From: a virus
Direction: 5' to 3' (one strand)
Virus record (IMG/VR): IMGVR_UViG_3300025530_000003
Length of the DNA: 48,438 nucleotides
Of the stretch, positions 1,307 through 38,065 are shown in pieces (the stretch's first letter is position 1; each line of letters begins with the position of its first letter). A program made the translations under genes and the position numbers. Under the pieces are notes generated by a model, which saw nothing but the letters and a program-made list of their open reading frames with translations, was not told where the DNA came from and made no database searches.

Positions 1307-2854
1307 TTGGAAGGGAGGTTTCCAGATGAAATGCGGTGCCTGAACTGCTATACAGCGGATATGGTAACTCCGCAAAATGGACATCCAGCATATATCGAAT
1401 GTCCGGCTTGTGGATCTATTGAACTGACGTATGAACCACAAGATTATCAGGTAGAGTCCCATACAGTCCCGATTCGCAAAGTGTGGAACGAAAAGAAGGG
1501 AAAATGGGAATCTGAACTTCGGATTATCGGTTGGTTCGGTGGTTATGGGAGCGGCAAATCTCGTGCAAGTTTGACGGAAGTACTGTTAACAGCGCTGGAA
1601 AGTCCAAAAGGAACGGGTCTCCTGACAGCGCCTACACTTCAGCAACTAAAGCGTACAACGCTCAAGACGTTTTTTAACGAAGTTTGCCCGCCACCGCTCA
1701 TAAAACGATATAATAAGTCAGAAGGTCAGATCGAACTCGTCAACGGATTCATATTTTACACGGTTCCTTCAGACGAAGAAGAAAAAATTCGATCTATAAA
1801 TGCCGGAATTATTCATATGGAGGAAGCATCCGGGATCAAGCGGACGATTTACGACCAATTATTGACCCGTATGAGAGATCGATTTGTTCCGAATCGACTT
1901 TTGGCGGTGTGTTCAAACCCGGATATTGGATGGATTAAGGAAATCTTTGCAGATAATATCGCCAAAGCCGACCCGAATCATCCAAAACACGATGAATATA
2001 ACCGATTTATTCACACATTTATCTGGGAAACAGAACTGAATAAATATCTTCCTTCAGATTACATCGAGGTTCAGAGTCGTGGAAAGCCTGAATGGTGGAT
2101 TCAGCGTTACCTGAAAGGCAGTTTCCAACATTCAGAGGGGATGGTTTATCCGAATTTTGCAAAATGTTTAAGAAATTCTTCCGATTATTTTGAAGAACGG
2201 GGAATTGAAGATATTCCTCAAAATTGGGAGAAGTTTGTGACTCTCGATCACGGTCTGGTAAATCCGACAGCGGTTTATTGGCATGCTATTGACCCGGTGA
2301 ACGGGGTTGTTGTAACGTATGATGAGCATTATAAAGCAAATATGCTTGTTCCAGACCATGCAAAAGCGATCAAACCACGTATTGACGCTATTCCAGCGGG
2401 GATGTTACGGTTTATGGTAGCCGATCCGTCCATTAAAAATCGTACCGATGTTGTAAATGGTAAAAGTGTACAAGCCTTATATCAAGAGTACGGACTCTAC
2501 TTTTCGCCCGGAAACAATGACGTTGAAGCCGGCATTCTGAAAGTGAACTCTTATATCGAACGGGGCAAATGGATCATCCTTCAGGATCGGTGTCCGAATC
2601 TTGCAAAAGAGGGGATCGAGTACAAGTATAAAGAAATCTCACTTGACGATACAAAAAATCCGGATGAAAAACCTGTGAAAAAGAATGACCATGCAATGGA
2701 CTCTATACGTTACGGGTTTATGAGATTGCCGGATGACCCAAATATGCTTAAAACAGTAGGATACAGTCCGCCAATGGACTATTCGGACTATTACTTGGAT
2801 GATGACGATGATGAATATGAAGAATACTCCGAAAATTACTTGAATTACGTGTAG
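1307..2854 (+). CDS. terL: Terminase large subunit with an N-terminal CxxC...CxxC zinc ribbon and an acidic C-terminal tail
   Basis: Walker A GGYGSGKS, an IHMEEAS Walker B-like motif, a C-terminal nuclease-like region (DHAMDSIRY), and its position before the portal gene. The start could instead be the ATG at 1331. Confidence 0.88.
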   Translation: MEGRFPDEMRCLNCYTADMVTPQNGHPAYIECPACGSIELTYEPQDYQVESHTVPIRKVWNEKKGKWESELRIIGWFGGYGSGKSRASLTEVLLTALESPKGTGLLTAPTLQQLKRTTLKTFFNEVCPPPLIKRYNKSEGQIELVNGFIFYTVPSDEEEKIRSINAGIIHMEEASGIKRTIYDQLLTRMRDRFVPNRLLAVCSNPDIGWIKEIFADNIAKADPNHPKHDEYNRFIHTFIWETELNKYLPSDYIEVQSRGKPEWWIQRYLKGSFQHSEGMVYPNFAKCLRNSSDYFEERGIEDIPQNWEKFVTLDHGLVNPTAVYWHAIDPVNGVVVTYDEHYKANMLVPDHAKAIKPRIDAIPAGMLRFMVADPSIKNRTDVVNGKSVQALYQEYGLYFSPGNNDVEAGILKVNSYIERGKWIILQDRCPNLAKEGIEYKYKEISLDDTKNPDEKPVKKNDHAMDSIRYGFMRLPDDPNMLKTVGYSPPMDYSDYYLDDDDDEYEEYSENYLNYV

Positions 2855-22836: not shown

Positions 22837-23079
22837 TCATCCCTCATCACTATAATTAATCAGCTTATCCAGAAACCAACGTGCTTTAAGCAAATCCTCT
22901 TTGCCGTTTTTGATTTTCCAGCGCCATAAGTATTTTATAGCGCTGCCGATCAGATACCCTTCATATCCTGAAAGAGTTGCTACTGCTGACTCGATCGCAT
23001 CGATACACTCAACTTTTCCTTGATTGTAATGTCTCGGACGTTCTACACTGTCATAAACAACTTTTCCTTCAGATTCCAT
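22837..23079 (-). CDS. DUF3310-family protein
   Basis: RPRHYNQGKVECIDAIESA...YLWRWKIKNGKEDLLKARWFL is the characteristic DUF3310 pattern. Confidence 0.65.
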   Translation of the reverse strand: MESEGKVVYDSVERPRHYNQGKVECIDAIESAVATLSGYEGYLIGSAIKYLWRWKIKNGKEDLLKARWFLDKLINYSDEG

Positions 23080-23380
23080 TCCGTCTCATCCTTTCAGATT
23101 TTTTAATTACGCTATTTACAGACCTTCCGACCAAGTATGAAACTTGATAGGCTGTAAGTTCTCCTTTCAGATGCCTACGAAGTATAACTAACTCTCCATC
23201 TGACCATCTTTTCTTAAATTTATTCGATCCCTTATCCATTCTTTCTGATACGTGATCTCTAACGTATCGATTACTTTTACATAAAGGACATACAGGTTTT
23301 TTAATAATTTTTGCTAAATAAATGGTGAAAACACATATACAATCATCACATATAAAATTATATTGAAAATTACGAGTCAT
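23069..23380 (-). CDS. Zn-ribbon plus Myb/SANT-like DNA-binding protein
   Basis: CDDC...CPLC cysteine pairs, followed by RWSDGELVILRRHL...YQVSYLVGRSVNSVIKKSERM. Confidence 0.45.
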   Translation of the reverse strand: MTRNFQYNFICDDCICVFTIYLAKIIKKPVCPLCKSNRYVRDHVSERMDKGSNKFKKRWSDGELVILRRHLKGELTAYQVSYLVGRSVNSVIKKSERMRRNGI

Positions 23381-24116: not shown

Positions 24117-25496
24117 ATGCTTGGTACACTTGGCGCATCGATGTTCATTACAGGTGTTGTCGGTGCAATCATGAATACTGAAAAAGCGTGCCTGAAACGA
24201 TCCATCAGACGATACTTATCCGCTACAAAGCTTTCTCCCGGAGTAAAGATGACGCTCTGTAAGCGACAGAATCGATCGTACAGGACTGAATTCACTTTAC
24301 CTTACGGATACACTATCGAAGAATTCAAATCACACCTGAAGGGGCTGGAGCAAGCCACAGCGAGTCATATTCGCTTCAGACATCTATTCGGATCAACTTG
24401 TGAACTTACTTTCGGCTTCCACCCATTCTACGAAAAGATGAATTTTACTGATGAACTTCCGATGGAACCTCTTGCCATTCCGCTTTACACTCCTTTCGGA
24501 CTTCGTACACTCGACTTCAAAGACGAAACATGTTGTCACCTTTTATGCGGTGGAGCGACTCGTATGGGAAAGTCAGCGTTTCTCAGATATGTTGCAACAC
24601 ACTTGATTCTGTCTACAGAAGGTAATGTAGATATTATATTCATTGATCATAAGGTGTCCGACTTGTACATGTTTCGAGATATTCCACAGATCAGAATTGC
24701 CGAAACTTCTGGCGAAGCCCGTGCTTATCTGAAGGATGTTCTTTCAGAAATTAATCGACGAAAGAACCTTCTCAAAAATTGTAGGGATGCTGTCGATCTT
24801 CGAGAATATCGATCCAAATATACGGACGATAAGGTAAATCCCATGTTCGTTATTATCGATGAGTATGGACGTTTCGCTGACGACAAGGTGATCCAAGAGA
24901 TTGTCACCGAGATCGCCGAAACTGCCGGTTATGTAGACGTCCATCTCATCATTTCCAGTCAGCGTCCTGATGCAAAAGACGTATTGAAGCCGAGAATTAA
25001 AGCAAACATTGTTACCAGAATGTCATTTGCCACTTTCGATGAAGTCAATTCCAAAATCATTCTCGATATTCCAGACGCTGCCCATATCGGCAAGATTCAG
25101 GGTAGGGCAATTCTTGTAGACGGTCATCCTGAACTTGTTCAGGTACCTTACATGTCCCCTTCACAAGTACAAGTTTTACTAAATAAGTATAGGAGAGATG
25201 ATTATGACGAAGCGAGACAAATTGATTATCCAATACCTGAAACATTTCCGGGTAATGGCGAGAGACCAGATCGCTCAACTAGCTTGTCCGGAAGTAGCCA
25301 GACCAGTAGTTACAGTGAACCGGATTTTGAAGCGCCTGTCGAGAGACGGTTACGTGCTTCCGATTCCGCAGGTGAAAGATCGTCCATACCTATACATGCC
25401 GAATCCGGCGATCATTCATCATCGGTCGAACAAAATCGAACATTTTCTTGGTTTAGTGGATATTTACCTTCGTTTGAAGAAACCGAAGATTTTTGA
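24117..25496 (+). CDS. FtsK/SpoIIIE-family DNA translocase-like ATPase with an N-terminal TM segment
   Basis: Walker A GGATRMGKS, Walker B FVIIDEYGRF, HLIISSQRP, and the TM segment LGASMFITGVVGAIM. The last 100 or so codons overlap the next gene. Confidence 0.75.
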   Translation: MLGTLGASMFITGVVGAIMNTEKACLKRSIRRYLSATKLSPGVKMTLCKRQNRSYRTEFTLPYGYTIEEFKSHLKGLEQATASHIRFRHLFGSTCELTFGFHPFYEKMNFTDELPMEPLAIPLYTPFGLRTLDFKDETCCHLLCGGATRMGKSAFLRYVATHLILSTEGNVDIIFIDHKVSDLYMFRDIPQIRIAETSGEARAYLKDVLSEINRRKNLLKNCRDAVDLREYRSKYTDDKVNPMFVIIDEYGRFADDKVIQEIVTEIAETAGYVDVHLIISSQRPDAKDVLKPRIKANIVTRMSFATFDEVNSKIILDIPDAAHIGKIQGRAILVDGHPELVQVPYMSPSQVQVLLNKYRRDDYDEARQIDYPIPETFPGNGERPDRSTSLSGSSQTSSYSEPDFEAPVERRLRASDSAGERSSIPIHAESGDHSSSVEQNRTFSWFSGYLPSFEETEDF

Positions 25497-25746
25497 AGTC
25501 GAACCCCAAATCAACGATGAGTATGTTCCAGATGCTTACACAAGGATCAACGATCGTCCAGTTATTATCGAATATCAACGAACGTTAATCAGCACAAAGA
25601 AGATGCAATCGAAAGTAGATGCGTTTGTTGAATCCTATGTCCGTAAACAACATGACGCAAGAACTTTACTGATTGTGTCCGATCACAACTATCCAAAGAT
25701 TACGATTCCTTCAGGTTTCCACATCATTCATAAGAAAACTAGTTGA
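25198..25746 (+). CDS. Replication-relaxation family protein (winged-helix N-terminus)
   Basis: MTKRDKLIIQYLKHFRVMARDQIAQL...RILKRLSRDGYV resembles the replication-relaxation family N-terminus. The ATG at 25204 has better RBS spacing. Confidence 0.55.
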   Translation: MIMTKRDKLIIQYLKHFRVMARDQIAQLACPEVARPVVTVNRILKRLSRDGYVLPIPQVKDRPYLYMPNPAIIHHRSNKIEHFLGLVDIYLRLKKPKIFEVEPQINDEYVPDAYTRINDRPVIIEYQRTLISTKKMQSKVDAFVESYVRKQHDARTLLIVSDHNYPKITIPSGFHIIHKKTS

Positions 25747-26416
25747 CATCTTCGTAAAATGTTTCGCCTGTTCGGGTATCTATTATAAGTGGACGGATAA
25801 GTTCGCCTAAGACATAGTTACGATTGACACCTTTAGGATAAGGAAGTATAGGATATTTTAACTGCTTCTTCAATCTCCTAGACTTCCTCGTAAAGAACAC
25901 ATATCTGTGCTTAGGTGTTCTAACTTTTCGTAGATGCTTATATTCTTCTGTATAATGTCTAGGATGCTTATTTCCCGGCATATACTTGTCCGTTCTTTCT
26001 TTTGTCTTTCCTGTGTAGATGAAGTTTGTTGCTTGATATATGTAGCCATGATGACCAACACCTTCATCTGCAAACGAAACGATGACAATATCCTCATTTC
26101 TAAGCATCCTTAACACTTTACCTACAAAGAAAGATAGCACGTTACGCCCCAAACCATCTTCAGTTACAAGTCTGTTTAATTCGTAGACTCTATGTGCATG
26201 TTCCGATCCTAAAAGACCTGTGCATAAGTTCGGTGATGCAGGTTTTCCAATAGTTAGTACACCTACCATAGTACTATCCTTAAAAAGTCCAAACGCATAA
26301 GATATTGAAGGCATACGCTGTGCATAGTGCTTTTTTAAAATAAAATCTTTCGTATCTTCGTAAGCTATTCTATTAACATGGAATCCGTTCACAGATTTAC
26401 ACCCACTTTCCTTCAT
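25739..26416 (-). CDS. Mom-like (GNAT-fold) DNA adenine modification protein candidate
   Basis: Motifs HYAQRMPSISYAFG, ELNRLV and SFADEGVGHHGYIYQATNFIYTG resemble proteins annotated as the Mom family. Recognised from memory only. Confidence 0.5.
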   Translation of the reverse strand: MKESGCKSVNGFHVNRIAYEDTKDFILKKHYAQRMPSISYAFGLFKDSTMVGVLTIGKPASPNLCTGLLGSEHAHRVYELNRLVTEDGLGRNVLSFFVGKVLRMLRNEDIVIVSFADEGVGHHGYIYQATNFIYTGKTKERTDKYMPGNKHPRHYTEEYKHLRKVRTPKHRYVFFTRKSRRLKKQLKYPILPYPKGVNRNYVLGELIRPLIIDTRTGETFYEDVN

Positions 26417-26422
26417 GCCGAT

Positions 26423-26647
26423 CTACCATCTATCTCTAAATTCCGGTGGTATACAAGTATGTTTATCAAAATGCTGTCTGGAATACATTCGGCGACATTT
26501 ATCACATCGAACCTTTGCGTATTTCCTTGCCGGTGCGCTGTTTTTGGGTCGCTCCGGCGAACATACATGGTTTTGATAGTAATAATAGCTGTATTTTTTA
26601 CGACAAGTAGGACAAGTTATCCTTTTTAAATGGTTTGGTCTACTCAT
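26423..26647 (-). CDS. Small double zinc-finger protein (two CxxC-x12-HxC motifs); possible Com-like regulator
   Basis: CPTCRKKYSYYYYQNHVC and CDKCRRMYSRQHFDKHTC. It lies 6 nt upstream of the Mom-like gene. Confidence 0.5.
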   Translation of the reverse strand: MSRPNHLKRITCPTCRKKYSYYYYQNHVCSPERPKNSAPARKYAKVRCDKCRRMYSRQHFDKHTCIPPEFRDRW

Positions 26648-28785
26648 TTTACAGGTGGCAACACCTTTCTTTTCTCGCTCCAGTAAGTATCCGAAAATTC
26701 TACTTCGGCAATGATTGGGACACTAATGTTCGGTGCATATTCCATAATCTTTTTGATCTCCCAAATCGCCCAATCTTCAGATGGGTCTGGAACGTGAAAT
26801 TGTAGTTCATCATGCACACACAAAACCATACGTAACTTTAAATTATTGTCTTTGATAAACTTGTCAATTTGAATCATTTTATTCTTTAAATCGTCTGCAC
26901 ACGTACCCTGAATTAAGTAATTTGCCGCTCTGTAGAAATTTCTTGAACTACTAATATAGTATCTTCGTCCAAAAAGGTTTTCTATATATCCCTGTTTACT
27001 CATAGTAGACTCTACGGCTCTTTGATAAGTGACGACTTTCGGGAAAGCATCTGTGTAACCTTTATTCATTGCTTTTGCTTGATCCAATGAAATATCAAGC
27101 GTTTCAGCCGCCATAGCATCTCCGCCGCCGTAGTTCCTCATAAAGTTGAACTGTTTTCCTATCCTTCTCCAGAAAGAAAACTCTTTTTCGTCCATTTCTT
27201 CAGGATTCATTCCCATAATCTTCAGCGCACGTATCGTAGTCGCTGAATGAACATCAGTTGGAATCCACGGCTTACTTGTTTCAGGAACGACCCACGCTGA
27301 CCAACCTTCCTTCAAAAGTTCCTCCCAGTGTTTGTCCGTTGGTGCTCCCGGCTTCATCTCATTCCATCGATTCCTTCCATATTCAGTTTCATGGTCGAAA
27401 ATTTCGCCTGTTTCATAGTGGACACACTTGAACGGCATATACGCTCGACAAAGGTTAATATCACCACCGAAGTACATAGTATAGTGCGCTTGAACACGTA
27501 ATTCGACCTGTGAGAAGTCCAGATAATATCCTCGTAGTTTAAAGGCTCGTCTAGGGTTAAATATTTCATTTCCCTTGTCGTCAAAGATCGCATCTCGTGG
27601 AAACTGTTGTGCATCGCCCGAAAATCTCCCGGAAACTGGATTGAATTGGTTCATCGATGAGTAAAATTTTCCGTCATATTCGGATACGTCAAGGATTCGT
27701 TCAATATATGTCGCTTTCCATTTTTCTAATCTACGTAACTTTATGATCGTATCCGCCAACTTGTCTCCTTCAGCCGCCATCTTTTTCATAAAAGACTTGT
27801 CTGTTGACGAAGGTTTGTATCCCAAACGATCTTCGTATATATCTTTGATAACTTCATGTTGCCCGACTGTAAACTTCTGTCCGGCGAGTTCATGCATTTT
27901 CATTTGAAGTTCATAAATATAATCTTCCACCAATTCGAGAGATTTCTTCAAATACTCCCGATCCACCGGAATTCCTTGACGTTCCATCTCCCATACTACT
28001 GGAAGAAGTTCAAATTCTTTGTTGAGTATCTTCCACTGCTTCCTGAAGGTTATCACAGGTGTTGATTTTTCAATCAAAATATCTGTGAGAATCCCGTCTG
28101 ATGCTACGTAAGGTGTAATAATGTCTATTGGAACGTCTGCATACGTTGGTTCTGGATAAGCATTTCGCCATTCCCGAAAAACGTTCATGACTTCTTCAGG
28201 AATCGGCTCCGTACTTTTATTCATTGCATTTTCCAATCTTGTAATCGTCCAACCAAACGGGCGAAGCATAGCTGAAAGAACTTTATGGTCTGACGTTCTT
28301 TTCTTCCTCATCCACGATATGACCGCTTTTTCATAACGATCTGCGGTCGCATCGATGTATTTGTTTCCAATCGCTTTCAGTTTTAACGTATCTCCACCGT
28401 ATCTAGTGCTTAACGCTTCAAAAGACAATCGACAAAAACCCATCGTATCGCCTAACTTCTTGAATCGCCTACCATACAAATCATCACCAAGTTTATTAGC
28501 TGCCATATGTAAGTCATAGTTGATGTTGTGATTCACCAAAAACCCAACTTGATTCGCTAAATTCACGAGTTCCAATAGGTTTTCTTCAGTTGCTGGAAAG
28601 ACGTAAGACTGACCTTTCCAAGTAAACGAACCTATTGTGGGCAAGTCCTTTTTGAGATGCAATCCTGTTGTCTCGAAATCGACAACGCACCATTTCGGCT
28701 GATCTTTCTTCAGATGGTCTCGAATATCTCTCAAGTAGTCGACGCTATTCACGTTATATTTATAATCGCCCATCTGTATAATCAT
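26644..28785 (-). CDS. Family A DNA polymerase with a 3'-5' exonuclease domain
   Basis: Exo I VVDFETTGL and Exo II NHNINYDL. Pol motif A DFSQVELRV, motif B RRIGKQFNFMRNYGG and motif C CVHDEL. Confidence 0.9.
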   Translation of the reverse strand: MIIQMGDYKYNVNSVDYLRDIRDHLKKDQPKWCVVDFETTGLHLKKDLPTIGSFTWKGQSYVFPATEENLLELVNLANQVGFLVNHNINYDLHMAANKLGDDLYGRRFKKLGDTMGFCRLSFEALSTRYGGDTLKLKAIGNKYIDATADRYEKAVISWMRKKRTSDHKVLSAMLRPFGWTITRLENAMNKSTEPIPEEVMNVFREWRNAYPEPTYADVPIDIITPYVASDGILTDILIEKSTPVITFRKQWKILNKEFELLPVVWEMERQGIPVDREYLKKSLELVEDYIYELQMKMHELAGQKFTVGQHEVIKDIYEDRLGYKPSSTDKSFMKKMAAEGDKLADTIIKLRRLEKWKATYIERILDVSEYDGKFYSSMNQFNPVSGRFSGDAQQFPRDAIFDDKGNEIFNPRRAFKLRGYYLDFSQVELRVQAHYTMYFGGDINLCRAYMPFKCVHYETGEIFDHETEYGRNRWNEMKPGAPTDKHWEELLKEGWSAWVVPETSKPWIPTDVHSATTIRALKIMGMNPEEMDEKEFSFWRRIGKQFNFMRNYGGGDAMAAETLDISLDQAKAMNKGYTDAFPKVVTYQRAVESTMSKQGYIENLFGRRYYISSSRNFYRAANYLIQGTCADDLKNKMIQIDKFIKDNNLKLRMVLCVHDELQFHVPDPSEDWAIWEIKKIMEYAPNISVPIIAEVEFSDTYWSEKRKVLPPVK

Positions 28786-31628
28786 ACTGTCCTACCTCCT
28801 TTTTGAGTTAATGGTTGTATATAGGTTTGAGTATCAATTTTTCTGTAAGCATCGATAGCTTTCCTTAACCTTCTTGTTGGCATAAATCCTTGTGGTGTTG
28901 CCGTTATTAAATAATTGGATGATAACTTATTGATAAGTTCGTTAAATGAGTCATTGTCCATACCGGATACGGCTTGCAGGTTGTACCTTGGGTAAGGTGT
29001 TGTTGTTTGGAGAATGTTCCGGAAAAATGATGCGTTTGTTCGGATCAGACCTGCTACAAGATTATTCACTGCTTCGTTCGTTTCATTCTTAATTCTCTGA
29101 TCCTGAACATATTCTCGAAGTCGAAAGATAGGATTATCGTAACAATCCCGTAAGAACTTTGATGCCCAATCCACATGTTCTTTTTCGACTACAATACATT
29201 CTCCAGATTCATCAGAACTGAAACATGCTCCGGCGCAAGCTACCGCTACCCTTGCGAGCTTCTTCCACGCTTCCGCCCCGAAAAATTTGATGTCTGTATT
29301 GTACGCTTCGTTCAGTTCCTGCGATACTTGCCATATATATTCTTCTACCCCCTCTCCCCAAAGGATTTGATCTGCGTTTCTACTCCACACCCAATGAATT
29401 AATCTTCTATATAATTCTGAATCATGTGCCTTCATCGGTGCTTCTTCGATTGGAGAATATATTTTAGTTTCAGCTACAAGTACGATGAAATCGAATCTTG
29501 CTATATCTTCAGTCGCACCAACTAAATCAAGCACGATTTGAACACCTGTTGGATAATCTTCTACGGGAAGATTCTTACCCTCATGATTTTTACGAGGGTT
29601 GCTGATCCACAGAAGTCTTGTCATAGCGGGCGCCTTACCTTTTACAATCTTGCTTACTGTAGCAATCCCGGACGATCTCATATCTGTAAGGGATGCGATA
29701 ACGTCCAGACTGCAATCTGACATCTCATCCAGAACGACCAGACCTTTGTTATTTCTTGGAATTGTTCCCCAAGATACTCGAAAACCTCCGTTCGGTAGCT
29801 TGTCCGCTCCGCCAAGAAGTCCGGCTGTTGTTGCTCTCTTAACAGATACAAAGTTTCCGATTCCGTAGTATCTCTGAAGCATTTCTGCCGTTTTGGACTT
29901 ACCTGTTCGGGTATCACCGACAATCAATCCTTCAGGGTATCCTTTCTCTACCTTTCCCCTGAATTTGAACTGAAGTGGGGAATGGTACATGAGATCAACG
30001 GCATATACGATCATTTCAGGTGCGAAATTTCCGACAATATCTTTTGCCATAAGCGCTCGCTTATACATCATATCTTTCGGATTTCCCTGAAAGACTTTCA
30101 ACGATTCCCGAATTTCTTCAGTCATGCGAAATGTATTTATAGCATTATCGGATTCTTCGACTTTATCTACAACCATATAAACCCGCTGACCATCCAGCGG
30201 ATGAGCGTATGTGCGGAAATATACTCTATACCTCAAACCATCTTCTAAAGCATGTCCAACAATATAAGCATATTGTTCCGTTGCTCTGAATCCGGACAAT
30301 ATATCTTCAGTTTCAACGTCCGGTGTAAAGATCACTTTGTAAACTTCTTTTCGGGTTCTGATCTCGAAATCTCCATTCGGACATTTGTCTGGAAACCCTA
30401 TTATTTTTCGCAAATTCTTTGTTTGTTGCGCTTTGGTAGAACATTTGTCTACCAGCATCATAACATCTCCCAAATTATCATCATCCAACGTCCACCATCC
30501 GGAAAATGAATCGTCCCTGTTTCCTCTTAGTGGACAATGGTGACATGGTGAGTTTCCTTCCAGAATCGGCTTTTTGCATACCCACCGTACCAGTGACGGT
30601 GTTTGCATTGCTGCATCGTATTTACCTGAAAGAACAACCCTGCTACTGATTCTTCTACCTGCATACTTCCCTTGTGGTACTTCCCATAGGTTGACGAGTG
30701 GATAATGCTTTTCCTTATCTTCGACGAAATCTTCAGGTGTATAGGGGATTGACTGTTCGATACATCGTTGAATATCTTCTGCCGTATAACCACGCTTGAC
30801 AACTGCATCTGTCAAGTCTTTTTCATCTTTGGAGCCACTTAATCCAAGATTTACGATGCGGACATCGGCTCCGGCTTCGTGCAGGTAAAACGCAACAGTT
30901 CTTGTCGCTTTCTTTCCAGCGTCATCTTCGTCATAACAGATGTAAACCGTTTTCCCTTTGAACATTCCCACAAACATTTTTGGGAATGATCCTTCGCCAC
31001 CTGTGACGCACACTGCGTTGAATCCTAATTGCCGGGCGAGTAAACAATCGTTCTCTCCAGCTACCAGCAAAGTTGGGCGTTCGTCCTGTATCCAATGATC
31101 GAATGGGAATAGTAGCGGTGAAGCACCTTTTCGGGATCGCATTTTCGGACGTTCATTCGGCATGTATGTGCGAACGTCACAAAGAACTCCGTGGATAAAA
31201 ACAGGATACCCTATACCATCGCCAGAATATCCAAGTTTATACTTACGTATAGTGTCTATAGTAATTCCACGGCTTTTCAAGTATTCGATATAATCTTGAC
31301 CCAACCTGTGCAAATTTTCGACAGCACGTTCCCAAATTTCTTCGTCATCGTGATCGGACTCTATAGTTACCAGTTTTGCAGCTTGTTCATATGGGATATT
31401 GTATATCTGCGAAACAAATCCGATTTCTGATAGACCTCCGTCACTAAACCTTCCTTCTGCCTGACAAGTTTTGCAGTGGAATAATCCTTTCGATGGGTTA
31501 ATATGTGCGGATGGACGAGTTTCATAACCTTTTGAATGCGGAAACGGGCAAAGTACTGGAATCTCGCCCTGTGAGTTCGCTTCAGGCAATGCTTGACGTT
31601 TAGAGAAAAACGATTCCAGAAACCTCAT
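28782..31628 (-). CDS. Fusion of a DnaG-type primase (zinc finger plus TOPRIM) with an MCM-like AAA+ helicase
   Basis: CPFPH...HCKTCQ zinc finger. TOPRIM motifs LLVAGENDC and YDEDDAGKK. Walker A GDTRTGKSKT, TTAGLLGG and Walker B VVLDEMSD resemble MCM core spacing. Confidence 0.7.
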   Translation of the reverse strand: MRFLESFFSKRQALPEANSQGEIPVLCPFPHSKGYETRPSAHINPSKGLFHCKTCQAEGRFSDGGLSEIGFVSQIYNIPYEQAAKLVTIESDHDDEEIWERAVENLHRLGQDYIEYLKSRGITIDTIRKYKLGYSGDGIGYPVFIHGVLCDVRTYMPNERPKMRSRKGASPLLFPFDHWIQDERPTLLVAGENDCLLARQLGFNAVCVTGGEGSFPKMFVGMFKGKTVYICYDEDDAGKKATRTVAFYLHEAGADVRIVNLGLSGSKDEKDLTDAVVKRGYTAEDIQRCIEQSIPYTPEDFVEDKEKHYPLVNLWEVPQGKYAGRRISSRVVLSGKYDAAMQTPSLVRWVCKKPILEGNSPCHHCPLRGNRDDSFSGWWTLDDDNLGDVMMLVDKCSTKAQQTKNLRKIIGFPDKCPNGDFEIRTRKEVYKVIFTPDVETEDILSGFRATEQYAYIVGHALEDGLRYRVYFRTYAHPLDGQRVYMVVDKVEESDNAINTFRMTEEIRESLKVFQGNPKDMMYKRALMAKDIVGNFAPEMIVYAVDLMYHSPLQFKFRGKVEKGYPEGLIVGDTRTGKSKTAEMLQRYYGIGNFVSVKRATTAGLLGGADKLPNGGFRVSWGTIPRNNKGLVVLDEMSDCSLDVIASLTDMRSSGIATVSKIVKGKAPAMTRLLWISNPRKNHEGKNLPVEDYPTGVQIVLDLVGATEDIARFDFIVLVAETKIYSPIEEAPMKAHDSELYRRLIHWVWSRNADQILWGEGVEEYIWQVSQELNEAYNTDIKFFGAEAWKKLARVAVACAGACFSSDESGECIVVEKEHVDWASKFLRDCYDNPIFRLREYVQDQRIKNETNEAVNNLVAGLIRTNASFFRNILQTTTPYPRYNLQAVSGMDNDSFNELINKLSSNYLITATPQGFMPTRRLRKAIDAYRKIDTQTYIQPLTQKGGRTV

Positions 31629-37659: not shown

Positions 37660-37850
37660 TAACTTTCGCTCCTTTCCTGACTTATCAAAGCGTCAGAGAA
37701 TTCTTCGATAAACCGATTCCATGCATTGTTTCTGCTCGGTTGTCCGAGAATCAACTCGTTCATGCATGGTTCGCAGATTTCTTCGCATTGTTTACGGGGA
37801 AATATCTCGCAACGTGCGCATAACTTTTGATCGGACATAGTTCTCACCAC
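37659..37850 (-). CDS. Small Cys-rich (Zn-binding) protein
   Basis: CARC...CEEICEPC in 63 aa. Confidence 0.45.
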   Translation of the reverse strand: MVRTMSDQKLCARCEIFPRKQCEEICEPCMNELILGQPSRNNAWNRFIEEFSDALISQERSES

Positions 37851-38065
37851 TCACATTTCCCGCCAGGACAGTCGATGCCGTAGGCGGTGGATTCGTCCAC
37901 CCATTTACCCTGAATCTTCCCGCTTGGACTAATCACATATCCGCCACATTCGCACTTATAACCGTATTGATAAGGAATTGTCTCGGAATCATATTCCTTT
38001 CCGCAATACCAACATTTGAATAAGACTTTCACTCTTTTCATCCTCCCACCCCGGTTCAGTGCCAT
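37844..38065 (-). CDS. Small Zn-ribbon protein
   Basis: CWYC...CECG...CPGGKC. The start is uncertain (38065 or the internal ATG). Confidence 0.45.
   Translation of the reverse strand: MALNRGGRMKRVKVLFKCWYCGKEYDSETIPYQYGYKCECGGYVISPSGKIQGKWVDESTAYGIDCPGGKCEW

What the first reader, a model, noticed from the sequence alone, without database searches (positions are those of the whole stretch)
25739..26647. com-mom-like operon: a small zinc-finger gene directly upstream of a Mom-like DNA modification gene
The 225-aa product carries HYAQRMP..., ELNRLV and SFADEGVGHHGYIYQATNFIYTG, which I recognise as the pattern of proteins annotated as the Mom family (GNAT-fold adenine carbamoylmethylation, phage Mu). 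Six nucleotides upstream lies a 74-aa protein with two CxxC-x12-HxC zinc fingers. In Mu, mom translation depends on Com, a small zinc-finger protein encoded immediately upstream. The same two-gene logic in a Firmicutes phage would suggest a regulated DNA hypermodification system for restriction evasion.
Basis: partly seen in the sequence, partly recalled or inferred. Interest (0 to 1): 0.7.

Follow-up and report, generated by a model that had tools for sequence, protein, structure and literature searches.

The report
Mom cassette beside unrelated zinc-finger gene
This phage of a Gram-positive host carries a real relative of phage Mu's Mom DNA-modifying enzyme, but the small zinc-finger gene in front of it does not correspond to Mu's Com regulator, because near-identical phages keep the zinc-finger gene with no mom gene after it.

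Summary
Both ORFs exist as described: a 225-aa gene (25739-26416, minus strand) and a 74-aa gene (26423-26647, minus strand), 6 nt apart. One correction: the finger spacing is CxxC-x11-HxC, not x12.

The 225-aa protein is a solid Mom-family member. It scores 135.8 bits on Pfam PF25680 (cut-off 27.1). Its AlphaFold model matches the Mu Mom crystal structure 8BV8 best (E 4.7e-14). Six of the Mu residues important for activity are conserved, including the essential R111 and S124. The essential R151 is a glycine here.

The com-like reading fails:
- The 74-aa protein has no similarity to Com in sequence or ligand pattern, and no real homologue in any collection searched.
- No homologue of it, and no other small Cys-pair ORF, lies upstream of mom in 95 other Mom loci.
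- In phages 99% identical to this one, mom is absent as a clean 687-bp indel (25734-26420), while the zinc-finger gene stays intact and still overlaps the polA stop codon.
- The indel carries mom's own Shine-Dalgarno sequence.

So mom is a single-gene cassette at the end of the replication operon. The zinc-finger gene is a lineage-specific orphan of the backbone. This is an ordinary new member of a family already annotated in Gram-positive phages.

The parts
25739..26416 (-). Mom-family gene (225 aa from the ATG; 217 aa if the GTG at 26392 is the true start). It is a GNAT-fold enzyme predicted to aminoacylate N6 of adenine in double-stranded DNA.
   Evidence: Pfam PF25680 135.8 bits. PHROG 1384 3.5e-67. 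PDB sequence hit 8BV8 at 1.2e-11. AF2 pLDDT 90.5, and Foldseek top hit 8BV8 at E 4.7e-14 with TM 0.67-0.74. Residues H30, Y31, R82, S95, D117 and Y127 align with Mu H58, Y59, R111, S124, D149 and Y159.
25734..26420 (-). 687-bp mom cassette: a clean insertion/deletion relative to 99%-identical Mom-less phages. It holds only mom, its Shine-Dalgarno sequence and 4-5 flanking nt on each side.
   Evidence: blastn of the window against L102: 26700..26421 and 25733..25300 are directly adjacent in L102. The empty site reads TAGAT|TTAT. The same junction is in L104 and L105.
26400..26412 (-). Shine-Dalgarno-like sequence AGGAAAGUGGGUG, 7 nt before the in-frame GTG (codon 9 of the ORF). It lies inside the cassette.
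   Evidence: Duplex energy with the anti-SD is -13.6 kcal/mol, against a window median of -11.7. The GTG start matches homologue N-termini.
26417..26422 (-). 6-nt spacer between the zinc-finger gene's stop codon and the mom ATG. It is 27 nt in relative L015.
26423..26647 (-). Orphan gene for a 74-aa, very basic protein (pI 10.0, net charge about +14) with two CxxC-x11-HxC motifs. It belongs to the phage backbone.
   Evidence: Motifs. Charge. Purifying selection across three alleles. No homologues apart from near-identical relatives. Present without mom in L102, L104 and L105.
26644..26647 (-). ATGA overlap: the start codon of the zinc-finger gene overlaps the stop codon of polA, suggesting translational coupling. 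The zinc-finger gene's own SD is weak (-6.5 kcal/mol).
   Evidence: identical in all relatives
26644..28785 (-). Family A DNA polymerase, the gene before the zinc-finger gene in the leftward replication operon.
   Evidence: PF00476 193.9 bits. PHROG 17. The upstream genes are primase/helicase, SSB, Sak4-like protein, exonuclease and helicase.
25198..25746 (+). Convergent Replic_Relax-like / replication-initiation-like gene. Its last 8 nt overlap the 3' end of mom and its stop codon lies inside the cassette. In Mom-less relatives it reads on to overlap the zinc-finger gene's 3' end by 17 nt.
   Evidence: PF13814 25.3 bits and PHROG 2190 4.4e-24..

Best explanation
The 225-aa gene is a genuine Mom-family enzyme of the subfamily common in phages of Gram-positive bacteria. 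By homology with Mu Mom, it most likely transfers glycine from Gly-tRNA(Gly) to N6 of adenine in double-stranded phage DNA after replication. The glycyl group then rearranges to N6-carbamoylmethyl-adenine, which blocks host restriction enzymes. That chemistry is inferred, not shown.

The gene is a self-contained 687-bp cassette with its own ribosome-binding site. It sits at the very end of the leftward replication operon (helicase, exonuclease, Sak4-like protein, SSB, primase/helicase, polA, zinc-finger gene, mom). It is probably transcribed by read-through from that operon, so the enzyme would be made while DNA is being replicated (inferred).

The 74-aa zinc-binding protein upstream belongs to the phage backbone, not to mom. 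It is translationally coupled to polA by an ATGA overlap. It is very basic and tyrosine-rich, so it most likely binds nucleic acid in some replication-associated or host-directed role (inferred, weakly). Its position next to mom reflects where the cassette was inserted or retained. It is not a Com-like regulatory pairing.
For: Mom membership:
- Pfam 135.8 bits against a 27.1 cut-off, covering profile positions 2-202 of 202.
- PHROG 1384 'Mom-like DNA modification protein' at 3.5e-67.
- BLASTP against Mu Mom: 33% identity over 129 aa, E 1e-16.
- 8BV8 is the only PDB sequence hit.
- AF2 model pLDDT 90.5; best fold match 8BV8 at E 4.7e-14, next GNATs at 4e-5.
- Mu H58, Y59, R111, S124, D149 and Y159 are conserved.

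Cassette:
- Flanks are 99.1-99.5% identical in L104 and L105, with exactly 25734..26420 missing.
- Mismatches cluster next to the junction: 8 in the adjacent 300 nt against about 1 per 300 nt elsewhere.
- The SD and the GTG start lie inside the cassette.

Independence of the two genes:
- The zinc-finger gene is intact without mom in two samples.
- phmmer with the zinc-finger protein hits only L015 among the ORFs of 96 Mom loci, and no other locus has a small Cys-pair ORF upstream.
- Upstream neighbours of the closest Mom homologues are HTH_3 genes or unrelated ORFs.
- Com homologues occur in only 26 phage records, all Mu-like phages of Proteobacteria, against 296 records with relatives of this Mom.

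Operon context: with no minus-strand promoter-like or terminator-like site upstream of either gene.
Against: - No DNA modification has been measured for this phage or, in the papers I could search, for any Gram-positive Mom-like protein.
- Mu R151, reported essential, is G119 here. W48 (dimer interface) is E20 and W181 is N149. The HTH-like insertion is about 14 residues shorter, and a C-terminal extension of about 30 residues is added. The chemistry or sequence specificity could therefore differ.
- The Mom-less and Mom-plus genomes diverged very recently, so retention of the zinc-finger gene without mom is not proof of long-term independent selection.
- One Mom-less contig carries an amber codon in polA and could be a defective genome.
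- Only 21.4 kb of the 47.3-kb Mom-less contig was inspected for mom.
- The elevated divergence across the zinc-finger gene next to the junction means that, in the Mom-plus donor, the two genes were already neighbours.
- The function of the zinc-finger protein is a guess.
Confidence: 0.75

Rival explanations
1. Convergent Com analogue. The 74-aa zinc-finger protein binds the mom leader RNA and activates or times translation of Mom, as Com does in Mu, although it is unrelated to Com in sequence.
For: It is small, basic (net charge about +14), zinc-binding by motif, on the same strand and immediately upstream of mom. The mom ATG lacks a canonical SD. Mom is toxic to the host in Mu, so control would make sense. 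In two diverged Mom-plus lineages (window and L015) the two genes are adjacent.
Against: - No Com model hit, while the Mu Com control hits.
- The ligand pattern differs: C2HC x2 against C4.
- No such gene lies upstream of mom in 95 other Mom loci.
- It is present, still coupled to polA, where mom is absent.
- The spacer length varies, 6 against 27 nt.
- A good SD with a GTG start lies inside the cassette.
- Folding energy around the start is no better than shuffles, z +0.84 and +0.09. This test is weak, because the Mu control reaches only z -1.22.
- No integrase or repressor turned up among the 24 ORFs scanned against PHROGs or Pfam, so the phage looks virulent and host toxicity would matter little.
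Confidence: 0.06
2. The Mom-like enzyme of this Gram-positive subfamily does something other than make N6-carbamoylmethyl-adenine. It might use another aminoacyl-tRNA or acyl donor, or target another nucleic acid.
For: Essential Mu R151 is replaced by G119 (A, G or S across the subfamily). An invariant H122 stands where Mu has R154. The insertion is shorter and there is an extra C-terminal segment of about 30 aa. Identity to Mu Mom is only 25-33%. I found no experimental work on this subfamily in the library.
Against: R111 and S124, the two residues singled out as essential and conserved across metagenomic homologues, are invariant, as are H58, Y59, D149 and Y159. The Pfam match is full length. 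Randomly chosen metagenomic homologues were active in the Mu assay.
Confidence: 0.12
3. The 74-aa ORF is not a functional gene. It would be a chance ORF in the polA-mom spacer.
For: Gene callers did not call it in any of the related contigs. No homologues exist outside this phage lineage. Its AF2 model has low confidence, pLDDT 52.6.
Against: - It exactly fills the gap, with an ATGA overlap to polA that is conserved in all relatives.
- Variable codons are 6 synonymous to 4 non-synonymous, P = 0.005, and pN/pS of 0.09 is similar to polA at 0.12.
- All 8 Cys/His ligands are invariant, and the two halves form an internal repeat (8 of 25 identical, including all the ligands).
- The antisense ORF changes at many residues between alleles.
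Confidence: 0.05

Closest known systems
Phage Mu Mom (PDB 8BV8; Pfam PF25680), a tRNA-dependent adenine N6 hypermodifying GNAT enzyme
   Same: Same Pfam family at full length. Same fold, with 8BV8 the best structural match. Conserved H58, Y59, R111, S124, D149 and Y159 equivalents. Basic protein of about 220-240 aa.
   Different: Only 25-33% identical. R151, W48 and W181 are not conserved. The HTH-like insertion is about 14 residues shorter. The Mu N-terminal ~35 residues are missing and about 30 C-terminal residues are added. The gene sits at the end of a replication operon rather than in a separately controlled late com-mom operon.
Mom-like proteins of Gram-positive phages (PHROG 1384), e.g. 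Exiguobacterium phage vB_EauM-23 gp56, Bacillus phage Riggi gp9, Listeria P100/A511-like and Staphylococcus Twort-like phages
   Same: 51-66% identical over the whole length, with the same subfamily signatures (ADxxxxH, C-terminal extension). These are single genes with unrelated neighbours and no Com.
   Different: Here the gene is demonstrably a presence/absence cassette between 99%-identical genomes. No near-identical phage is in GenBank.
Phage Mu Com (Pfam PF10122), the zinc-finger translational activator of mom
   Same: Small (62 against 74 aa), Cys-rich, basic, on the same strand and directly upstream of mom.
   Different: No sequence or model similarity. Com has one N-terminal C4 finger plus a disordered tail, while this protein has two C2HC motifs. 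com overlaps mom by 80 nt in the Mu record, whereas here there is a gap of 6-30 nt. Com homologues are confined to Mu-like phages of Proteobacteria. The protein here persists where no modification gene follows it.
Com plus DNA adenine methyltransferase operons of Mu-like prophages (FluMu HI1522.1/HI1523, Pnm1, phage B3)
   Same: They show that in Mu-likes the small zinc-finger gene can stay while the downstream modification gene is exchanged. This resembles, superficially, the zinc-finger gene staying here while mom comes and goes.
   Different: There a modification gene always follows com. In the Mom-less relatives here nothing follows the zinc-finger gene, which instead abuts the convergent gene.
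Eukaryote-type beta-beta-alpha C2H2/C2HC zinc fingers (for example UBZ and Sgf11 types)
   Same: CxxC, then an aromatic residue four positions after the second Cys, then His about 11 residues on. A weak beta-beta-alpha signal in the AF2 model. Only sub-threshold Pfam and Foldseek hits are of this kind.
   Different: All hits are below the thresholds. The final H-x-C spacing is atypical. A cross-braced two-zinc module cannot be excluded.

Membership tests
Mom (Pfam PF25680) | Score above the curated gathering threshold of the family model, over the full domain | tested here: met
   135.8 bits against 27.1; residues 12-195 match profile positions 2-202 of 202. PHROG 1384 at 3.5e-67.
Mom (Pfam PF25680) | GNAT fold closest to the Mu Mom crystal structure | tested here: met
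   AF2 pLDDT 90.5 and pTM 0.84. Foldseek rank 1-2 is 8BV8 at E 4.7e-14, TM 0.67-0.74. The next GNAT is at E 4.4e-5, TM 0.44.
Mom (Pfam PF25680) | Residues essential or important in Mu Mom: R111 and S124 (essential), plus H58, Y59, D149 and Y159 | tested here: met
   R82, S95, H30, Y31, D117 and Y127 are invariant in a 9-sequence alignment that includes Mu.
Mom (Pfam PF25680) | R151 (essential in Mu), W48 (dimer interface) and W181 | tested here: not met
   G119, E20 and N149. The same holds for the whole Gram-positive-type subfamily. These residues are not reported as family-wide signatures, so this marks a subfamily difference rather than exclusion from the family.
Mom (Pfam PF25680) | HTH-like insertion (Mu 175-209), required for activity | tested here: inconclusive
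   The aligned segment is about 14 residues shorter. The AF2 model shows three short helical turns at 147-160. No superposition was made.
Mom (Pfam PF25680) | Gly-tRNA(Gly)-dependent formation of 6-NcmdA in dsDNA and protection from restriction | not testable with these tools
   Needs nucleoside LC-MS/MS or an in vitro assay as in PMC13219725.
Com (Pfam PF10122, Zn_ribbon_Com) | Match to the family model | tested here: not met
   No PF10122 hit at E<=1. The positive control, Mu Com, scores 36.8 bits against a 22.9 cut-off. BLASTP against Mu Com is not significant.
Com (Pfam PF10122, Zn_ribbon_Com) | Single N-terminal C4 zinc finger (Cys6, 9, 26, 29) followed by a disordered tail | tested here: not met
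   Two CxxC-x11-HxC motifs span residues 12-65 of 74. Com features are from PMC6483171 and PMC3299994.
Com (Pfam PF10122, Zn_ribbon_Com) | Conserved linkage with a downstream DNA-modification gene in one operon | tested here: not met
   The gene is on the same strand and adjacent to mom only in this lineage. Nothing like it precedes mom in 95 other Mom loci. It is present with no downstream gene in L102, L104 and L105.
Com (Pfam PF10122, Zn_ribbon_Com) | Target hairpin next to a translation-inhibition structure that sequesters the mom start | tested here: inconclusive
   MFE z-scores of +0.84 (120 nt) and +0.09 (70 nt) around the start. No Rfam hit. The same test on Mu gives only z -1.22, so it has little power.
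Com (Pfam PF10122, Zn_ribbon_Com) | RNA binding and translational activation of mom | not testable with these tools
   Needs EMSA or SHAPE and reporter fusions.

The most novel reading that the evidence does not exclude
The Gram-positive-type Mom subfamily, which lacks Mu's essential R151 and carries an invariant His three residues further on, a shortened insertion and an extra C-terminal segment, might install a different adenine adduct, for example from another aminoacyl-tRNA, or have a different sequence specificity. The naturally occurring Mom-plus and Mom-less versions of this phage, which differ locally only by the 687-bp cassette, would then be a ready-made pair for finding a new DNA hypermodification. 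A second, less likely reading is that the orphan tandem C2HC protein is a convergently evolved Com-like activator (about 0.06).
Probability: 0.1. Interest if true: 0.65.

Novelty: new member of a known kind. Interest (0 to 1): 0.25.

Why it matters
Mom-like genes are already annotated in many phages of Listeria, Staphylococcus, Bacillus and Enterococcus, so finding another adds little by itself. Three points are useful.

1. The attractive 'com-mom in Firmicutes' idea can be set aside for this locus. In the 96 Mom loci screened here, no small zinc-finger partner appears outside this lineage, and in the phage collection Com homologues occur only in Mu-like phages of Proteobacteria.

2. mom is shown here to be a single-gene cassette that is present or absent between 99%-identical wild genomes. 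That is direct evidence for its role as an exchangeable anti-restriction accessory gene. It also offers a natural near-isogenic pair for testing what Gram-positive Mom-like enzymes do, which appears untested in the searchable literature.

3. The subfamily lacks a residue reported as essential in Mu Mom. This is worth knowing before Mu's chemistry is transferred to these proteins.

Tried and rejected
Searches for homologues of the 74-aa protein:
- tblastn against 50,697 phage records found nothing at E<=1.
- The k-mer/HMMER search of 5.8 billion proteins found no candidate.
- The exhaustive phmmer search of 1.84 billion representatives gave two hits, both inflated by repeats. P0001 lacks the second Cys and the His. 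P0002 is a secreted repeat protein with CPTC-x12-HSCH units.
- The PDB sequence search gave only a local 'CPTCRKK' match to RNF4 RING fingers.
- Degenerate-pattern scans of viral, genome and metagenome contigs recovered only the near-identical relative L102.
- AF2 without an alignment gave pLDDT 52.6, and Foldseek gave nothing below E = 5, so no fold assignment is claimed.

Other tests that led nowhere:
- RNA folding around the mom start showed no signal, but neither did the Mu control in any convincing way. I give this test little weight.
- Rfam found nothing.
- Promoter and terminator scans found nothing on the minus strand upstream of either gene, and fewer hits than in shuffles.
- Megablast of 25000-29000 against phages found no match.
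- I checked whether the polA relatives (about 39% identical) in Paenibacillus phage SV21 and Bacillus phage Goe12 are followed by a zinc-finger gene. They are not.
- I tried to fetch the rest of the Mom-less contig through identical proteins. One protein was not on record, and the capsid look-up returned only other contigs.

Ideas considered and rejected:
- The zinc-finger ORF as a frameshift extension of polA. The polA homologues align to residues 9-708 of 713 without it.
- The antisense ORF 26378..26629 (+) as the real gene. Its protein changes at many positions between alleles.
Full report
**Observation.** The window holds, on the minus strand, a 225-aa ORF (25739..26416) and a 74-aa ORF (26423..26647) separated by 6 nt. 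The small protein carries C12-x2-C15-x11-H27-x-C29 and C48-x2-C51-x11-H63-x-C65, so the spacer is 11 residues, not 12. The start codon of the small gene overlaps the stop codon of the preceding family A DNA polymerase gene (ATGA at 26644..26647).

**The 225-aa protein is a Mom-family enzyme.**
- It scores 135.8 bits on Pfam PF25680 'Mom' (gathering score 27.1), over the whole 202-position profile.
- It scores 3.5e-67 on PHROG 1384 'Mom-like DNA modification protein'.
- BLASTP against Mu Mom, taken from NC_000929, gives 33% identity over 129 residues, E 1e-16.
- The only PDB sequence hit is 8BV8, 'Methylcarbamoylase mom'.
- An AlphaFold2 model built on 34 homologues (pLDDT 90.5) has 8BV8 as its best structural match (E 4.7e-14, TM 0.67-0.74). 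Ordinary GNATs follow nine orders of magnitude behind.

**What the Mu literature says.** Silva et al. 2026 (PMC13219725) show that Mu Mom transfers glycine from Gly-tRNA(Gly) to N6 of adenine in dsDNA, followed by rearrangement to 6-NcmdA. They report R111, S124 and R151 as essential, H58, Y59, W48, Y159 and W181 as important, and an HTH-like insertion (about residues 175-209) as required.

**How this protein compares.** In an alignment that includes Mu, H58, Y59, R111, S124, D149 and Y159 correspond to invariant H30, Y31, R82, S95, D117 and Y127. In contrast, R151 is G119, W48 is E20 and W181 is N149. The insertion is about 14 residues shorter, and about 30 residues are added at the C-terminus. 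These differences are shared by the whole subfamily to which this protein belongs. I therefore file it as a Mom-family member of the Gram-positive-type subfamily. The Mu chemistry is inferred, not shown.

**This subfamily is common and already annotated.** tblastn finds relatives in 296 phage records, including Vibrio, Listeria, Enterococcus, Arthrobacter, Staphylococcus and Bacillus phages. Many are labelled 'Mom-like DNA modification protein'. The protein database holds more than 3,300 homologues at E<=1e-10.

**The 74-aa protein is a real gene but an orphan.**
- Three alleles were recovered from near-identical phages: the window, L103 and L106; L015; and L102, L104 and L105.
- All are 74 codons long, keep all eight Cys/His ligands and keep the ATGA overlap with polA.
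- Of ten variable codons six are synonymous, against an expected synonymous fraction of 0.19 (P = 0.005). Pairwise pN/pS is 0.09, similar to polA at 0.12.
- The protein is very basic (pI 10.0, net charge about +14) and tyrosine-rich. Its two halves are an internal repeat.
- Outside this lineage nothing related was found in phage genomes, 5.8 billion clustered proteins, 1.84 billion representatives searched exhaustively, the PDB, or viral, genome and metagenome contigs.
- The single-sequence AF2 model is poor (pLDDT 52.6), with only a hint of a beta-beta-alpha unit, and Foldseek finds nothing significant.

**It is not Com.** Com is a 62-aa protein with one N-terminal C4 finger (Cys6, 9, 26, 29) and a disordered tail. 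It binds a hairpin next to a translation-inhibition structure in the mom leader (PMC6483171; PMC3299994).
- The Com model PF10122 is not hit at E<=1, while Mu Com scores 36.8 bits in the same test.
- BLASTP against Mu Com is not significant.
- The ligand pattern differs.
- Com homologues occur in only 26 phage records, all Mu-like phages of Escherichia, Shigella, Yersinia and Pseudomonas.

**The two genes are not linked across relatives.** I collected 96 loci that encode relatives of this Mom, 39-100% identical.
- phmmer with the zinc-finger protein against all their ORFs hits only L015, the 98%-identical relative.
- No other locus has a small Cys-pair ORF upstream of mom. The four other loci with a Cys-pair ORF upstream have unrelated proteins of 110-293 aa.
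- The upstream neighbours of the closest homologues (about 70% identical) are 66-aa HTH_3 genes or unrelated ORFs.

**The decisive result.** The metagenome scan with the zinc-finger protein found L102, part of the 47,339-bp contig ERZ795043 NODE_325. There polA and the zinc-finger gene are present but are followed directly by the convergent Replic_Relax-like gene. There is no mom.
- blastn shows that window 26700..26421 and 25733..25300 are contiguous in L102. The window therefore carries an extra 687 bp, 25734..26420, which is mom plus 4-5 nt on each side.
- A look-up of the identical FtsK-like protein returned both configurations. Mom-plus contigs are L103 (100% identical to the window over 21.4 kb) and L106. 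Mom-less contigs are L104 (the same contig as L102) and L105, from a different sample.
- Flanks are 99.1-99.5% identical, and tblastn finds no mom elsewhere in the 21.4 kb of the Mom-less contig that I hold.
- The contig is 1,099 bp shorter than the window, which is compatible with simple absence of the cassette.
- Mismatches between the two versions cluster in the 300 nt next to the junction (8, against about 1 per 300 nt elsewhere). This is what a recombination tract that brought the cassette in or took it out would leave.
- In L015 the upstream junction differs by a 21-nt indel, so the 6-nt spacing is not conserved.

**Translation signals.**
- The mom ATG has no canonical SD.
- The in-frame GTG at codon 9 (26392) is preceded at 7 nt by AGGAAAGUGGGUG (-13.6 kcal/mol against a window median of -11.7) and matches the N-termini of homologues.
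- Both candidate starts and the SD lie inside the cassette, so mom brings its own initiation region.
- The zinc-finger gene has a weak SD (-6.5 kcal/mol) and relies on the overlap with polA.
- Folding of 70 and 120 nt around the mom start is no more stable than shuffles (z +0.09 and +0.84). The same test on Mu gives only z -1.22, so I give it little weight.
- Rfam finds nothing.

**Context.** The minus-strand block 26.4-37.2 kb is a replication module: SNF2-type helicase, PD-(D/E)XK exonuclease, Sak4-like annealing protein, SSB, primase/helicase and polA. No promoter-like or terminator-like site lies on the minus strand upstream of the two genes. mom is thus probably transcribed with the replication genes, not from a separately controlled late promoter as in Mu.

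The window looks like a complete, probably virulent phage genome of about 48 kb:
- It encodes terminase, portal, a Mu-gpT-like capsid protein and an SLH-domain amidase.
- No integrase or repressor was seen among the 24 ORFs I scanned against PHROGs or Pfam.
- GC content is 41.5%, and SD sequences are strong and Bacillus-like.
- The polA is about 39% identical to those of Bacillus and Paenibacillus phages.
- There is no close match in GenBank phages.

These points rest.

**Conclusion.** The Mom assignment is right, with subfamily caveats. The com-mom analogy is not supported. The most economical account is that a single-gene mom cassette sits at the 3' end of the replication operon, immediately after a backbone gene for a lineage-specific, basic, zinc-binding protein of unknown and probably nucleic-acid-related function.

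Residual possibilities are that this protein nevertheless influences mom expression (about 6%) and that the subfamily performs different chemistry from Mu Mom (about 10-12%). Caveats:
- The Mom-plus and Mom-less genomes split recently.
- One Mom-less contig has an amber codon in polA.
- Only part of that contig was inspected.
- No experiment on any Gram-positive Mom-like protein was found in the searchable literature.

Noticed in passing
window 25734-26420; L102 3227|3228; L104; L105: mom is polymorphic in the wild. Mom-plus contigs (the window, identical to JGI 3300025529 contig L103; L106; L015) and Mom-less contigs (ENA ERZ795043 NODE_325 and ERZ27254875 k141_8642) are 98-100% identical in the flanks. 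Mismatches are concentrated right next to the junction.
   Followed up: yes
window 27265-27267 (polA codon 507); L102 and L104: The Mom-less contig ERZ795043 NODE_325 has TGG->TAG (amber) at polA codon 507, which splits the polymerase into 506-aa and 190-aa ORFs. It could be a defective genome, a natural amber variant or an assembly error. The second Mom-less contig ends before this position.
   Followed up: partly
window 24117-25496 (+) and 25198-25746 (+): The FtsK/SpoIIIE-like ORF (459 aa; homology ends near residue 369, and the tail is low-complexity Ser/Glu-rich) overlaps the Replic_Relax-like / replication-initiation-like ORF by 299 nt in another frame. This FtsK plus relaxase-like pair is unusual in a phage and reminiscent of conjugative-element transfer modules.
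   Followed up: no
window 30921-31220 (primase/helicase gene): A second cluster of 13 mismatches in 300 nt between the window and the Mom-less relative, against about 1 per 300 nt elsewhere. This suggests another small recombination patch.
   Followed up: no
window 23069-23380 (-), 37844-38065 (-), 1307-2854 (+): Other Cys-pair proteins are present: a 103-aa and a 73-aa small ORF with CxxC pairs, and the large terminase, which has an N-terminal pair of CxxC motifs if the TTG start is used (gene callers start it 8 codons later). Small zinc-binding ORFs are therefore not rare in this genome.
   Followed up: partly
L016-L018 (701-901), L020 (1922-2122): In the closest non-identical Mom homologues (about 70% identity), mom follows, and in L016-L018 overlaps, a 66-aa HTH_3 (Cro/cI-type) gene in what looks like a lysogeny-switch region of temperate phages. 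This is a different small regulator-like neighbour that might be worth a look.
   Followed up: no
P0002 (252 aa, from the exhaustive protein search): A secreted-looking protein with a signal peptide and four near-identical units 'RRGFTCPTCGKSFSSSSAYSSHSCHSRKPR' separated by acidic spacers. It looks like a repeat peptide precursor whose units carry a C2HC-like motif. It matched the zinc-finger protein only through repetition.
   Followed up: no
window 25739-26416 against PHROG 3339: The N-terminal 135 residues of this Mom also match positions 366-485 of a 536-position PHROG annotated 'homing endonuclease' (4.6e-07). This suggests that some phages encode Mom-like domains fused to other modules.
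   Followed up: no
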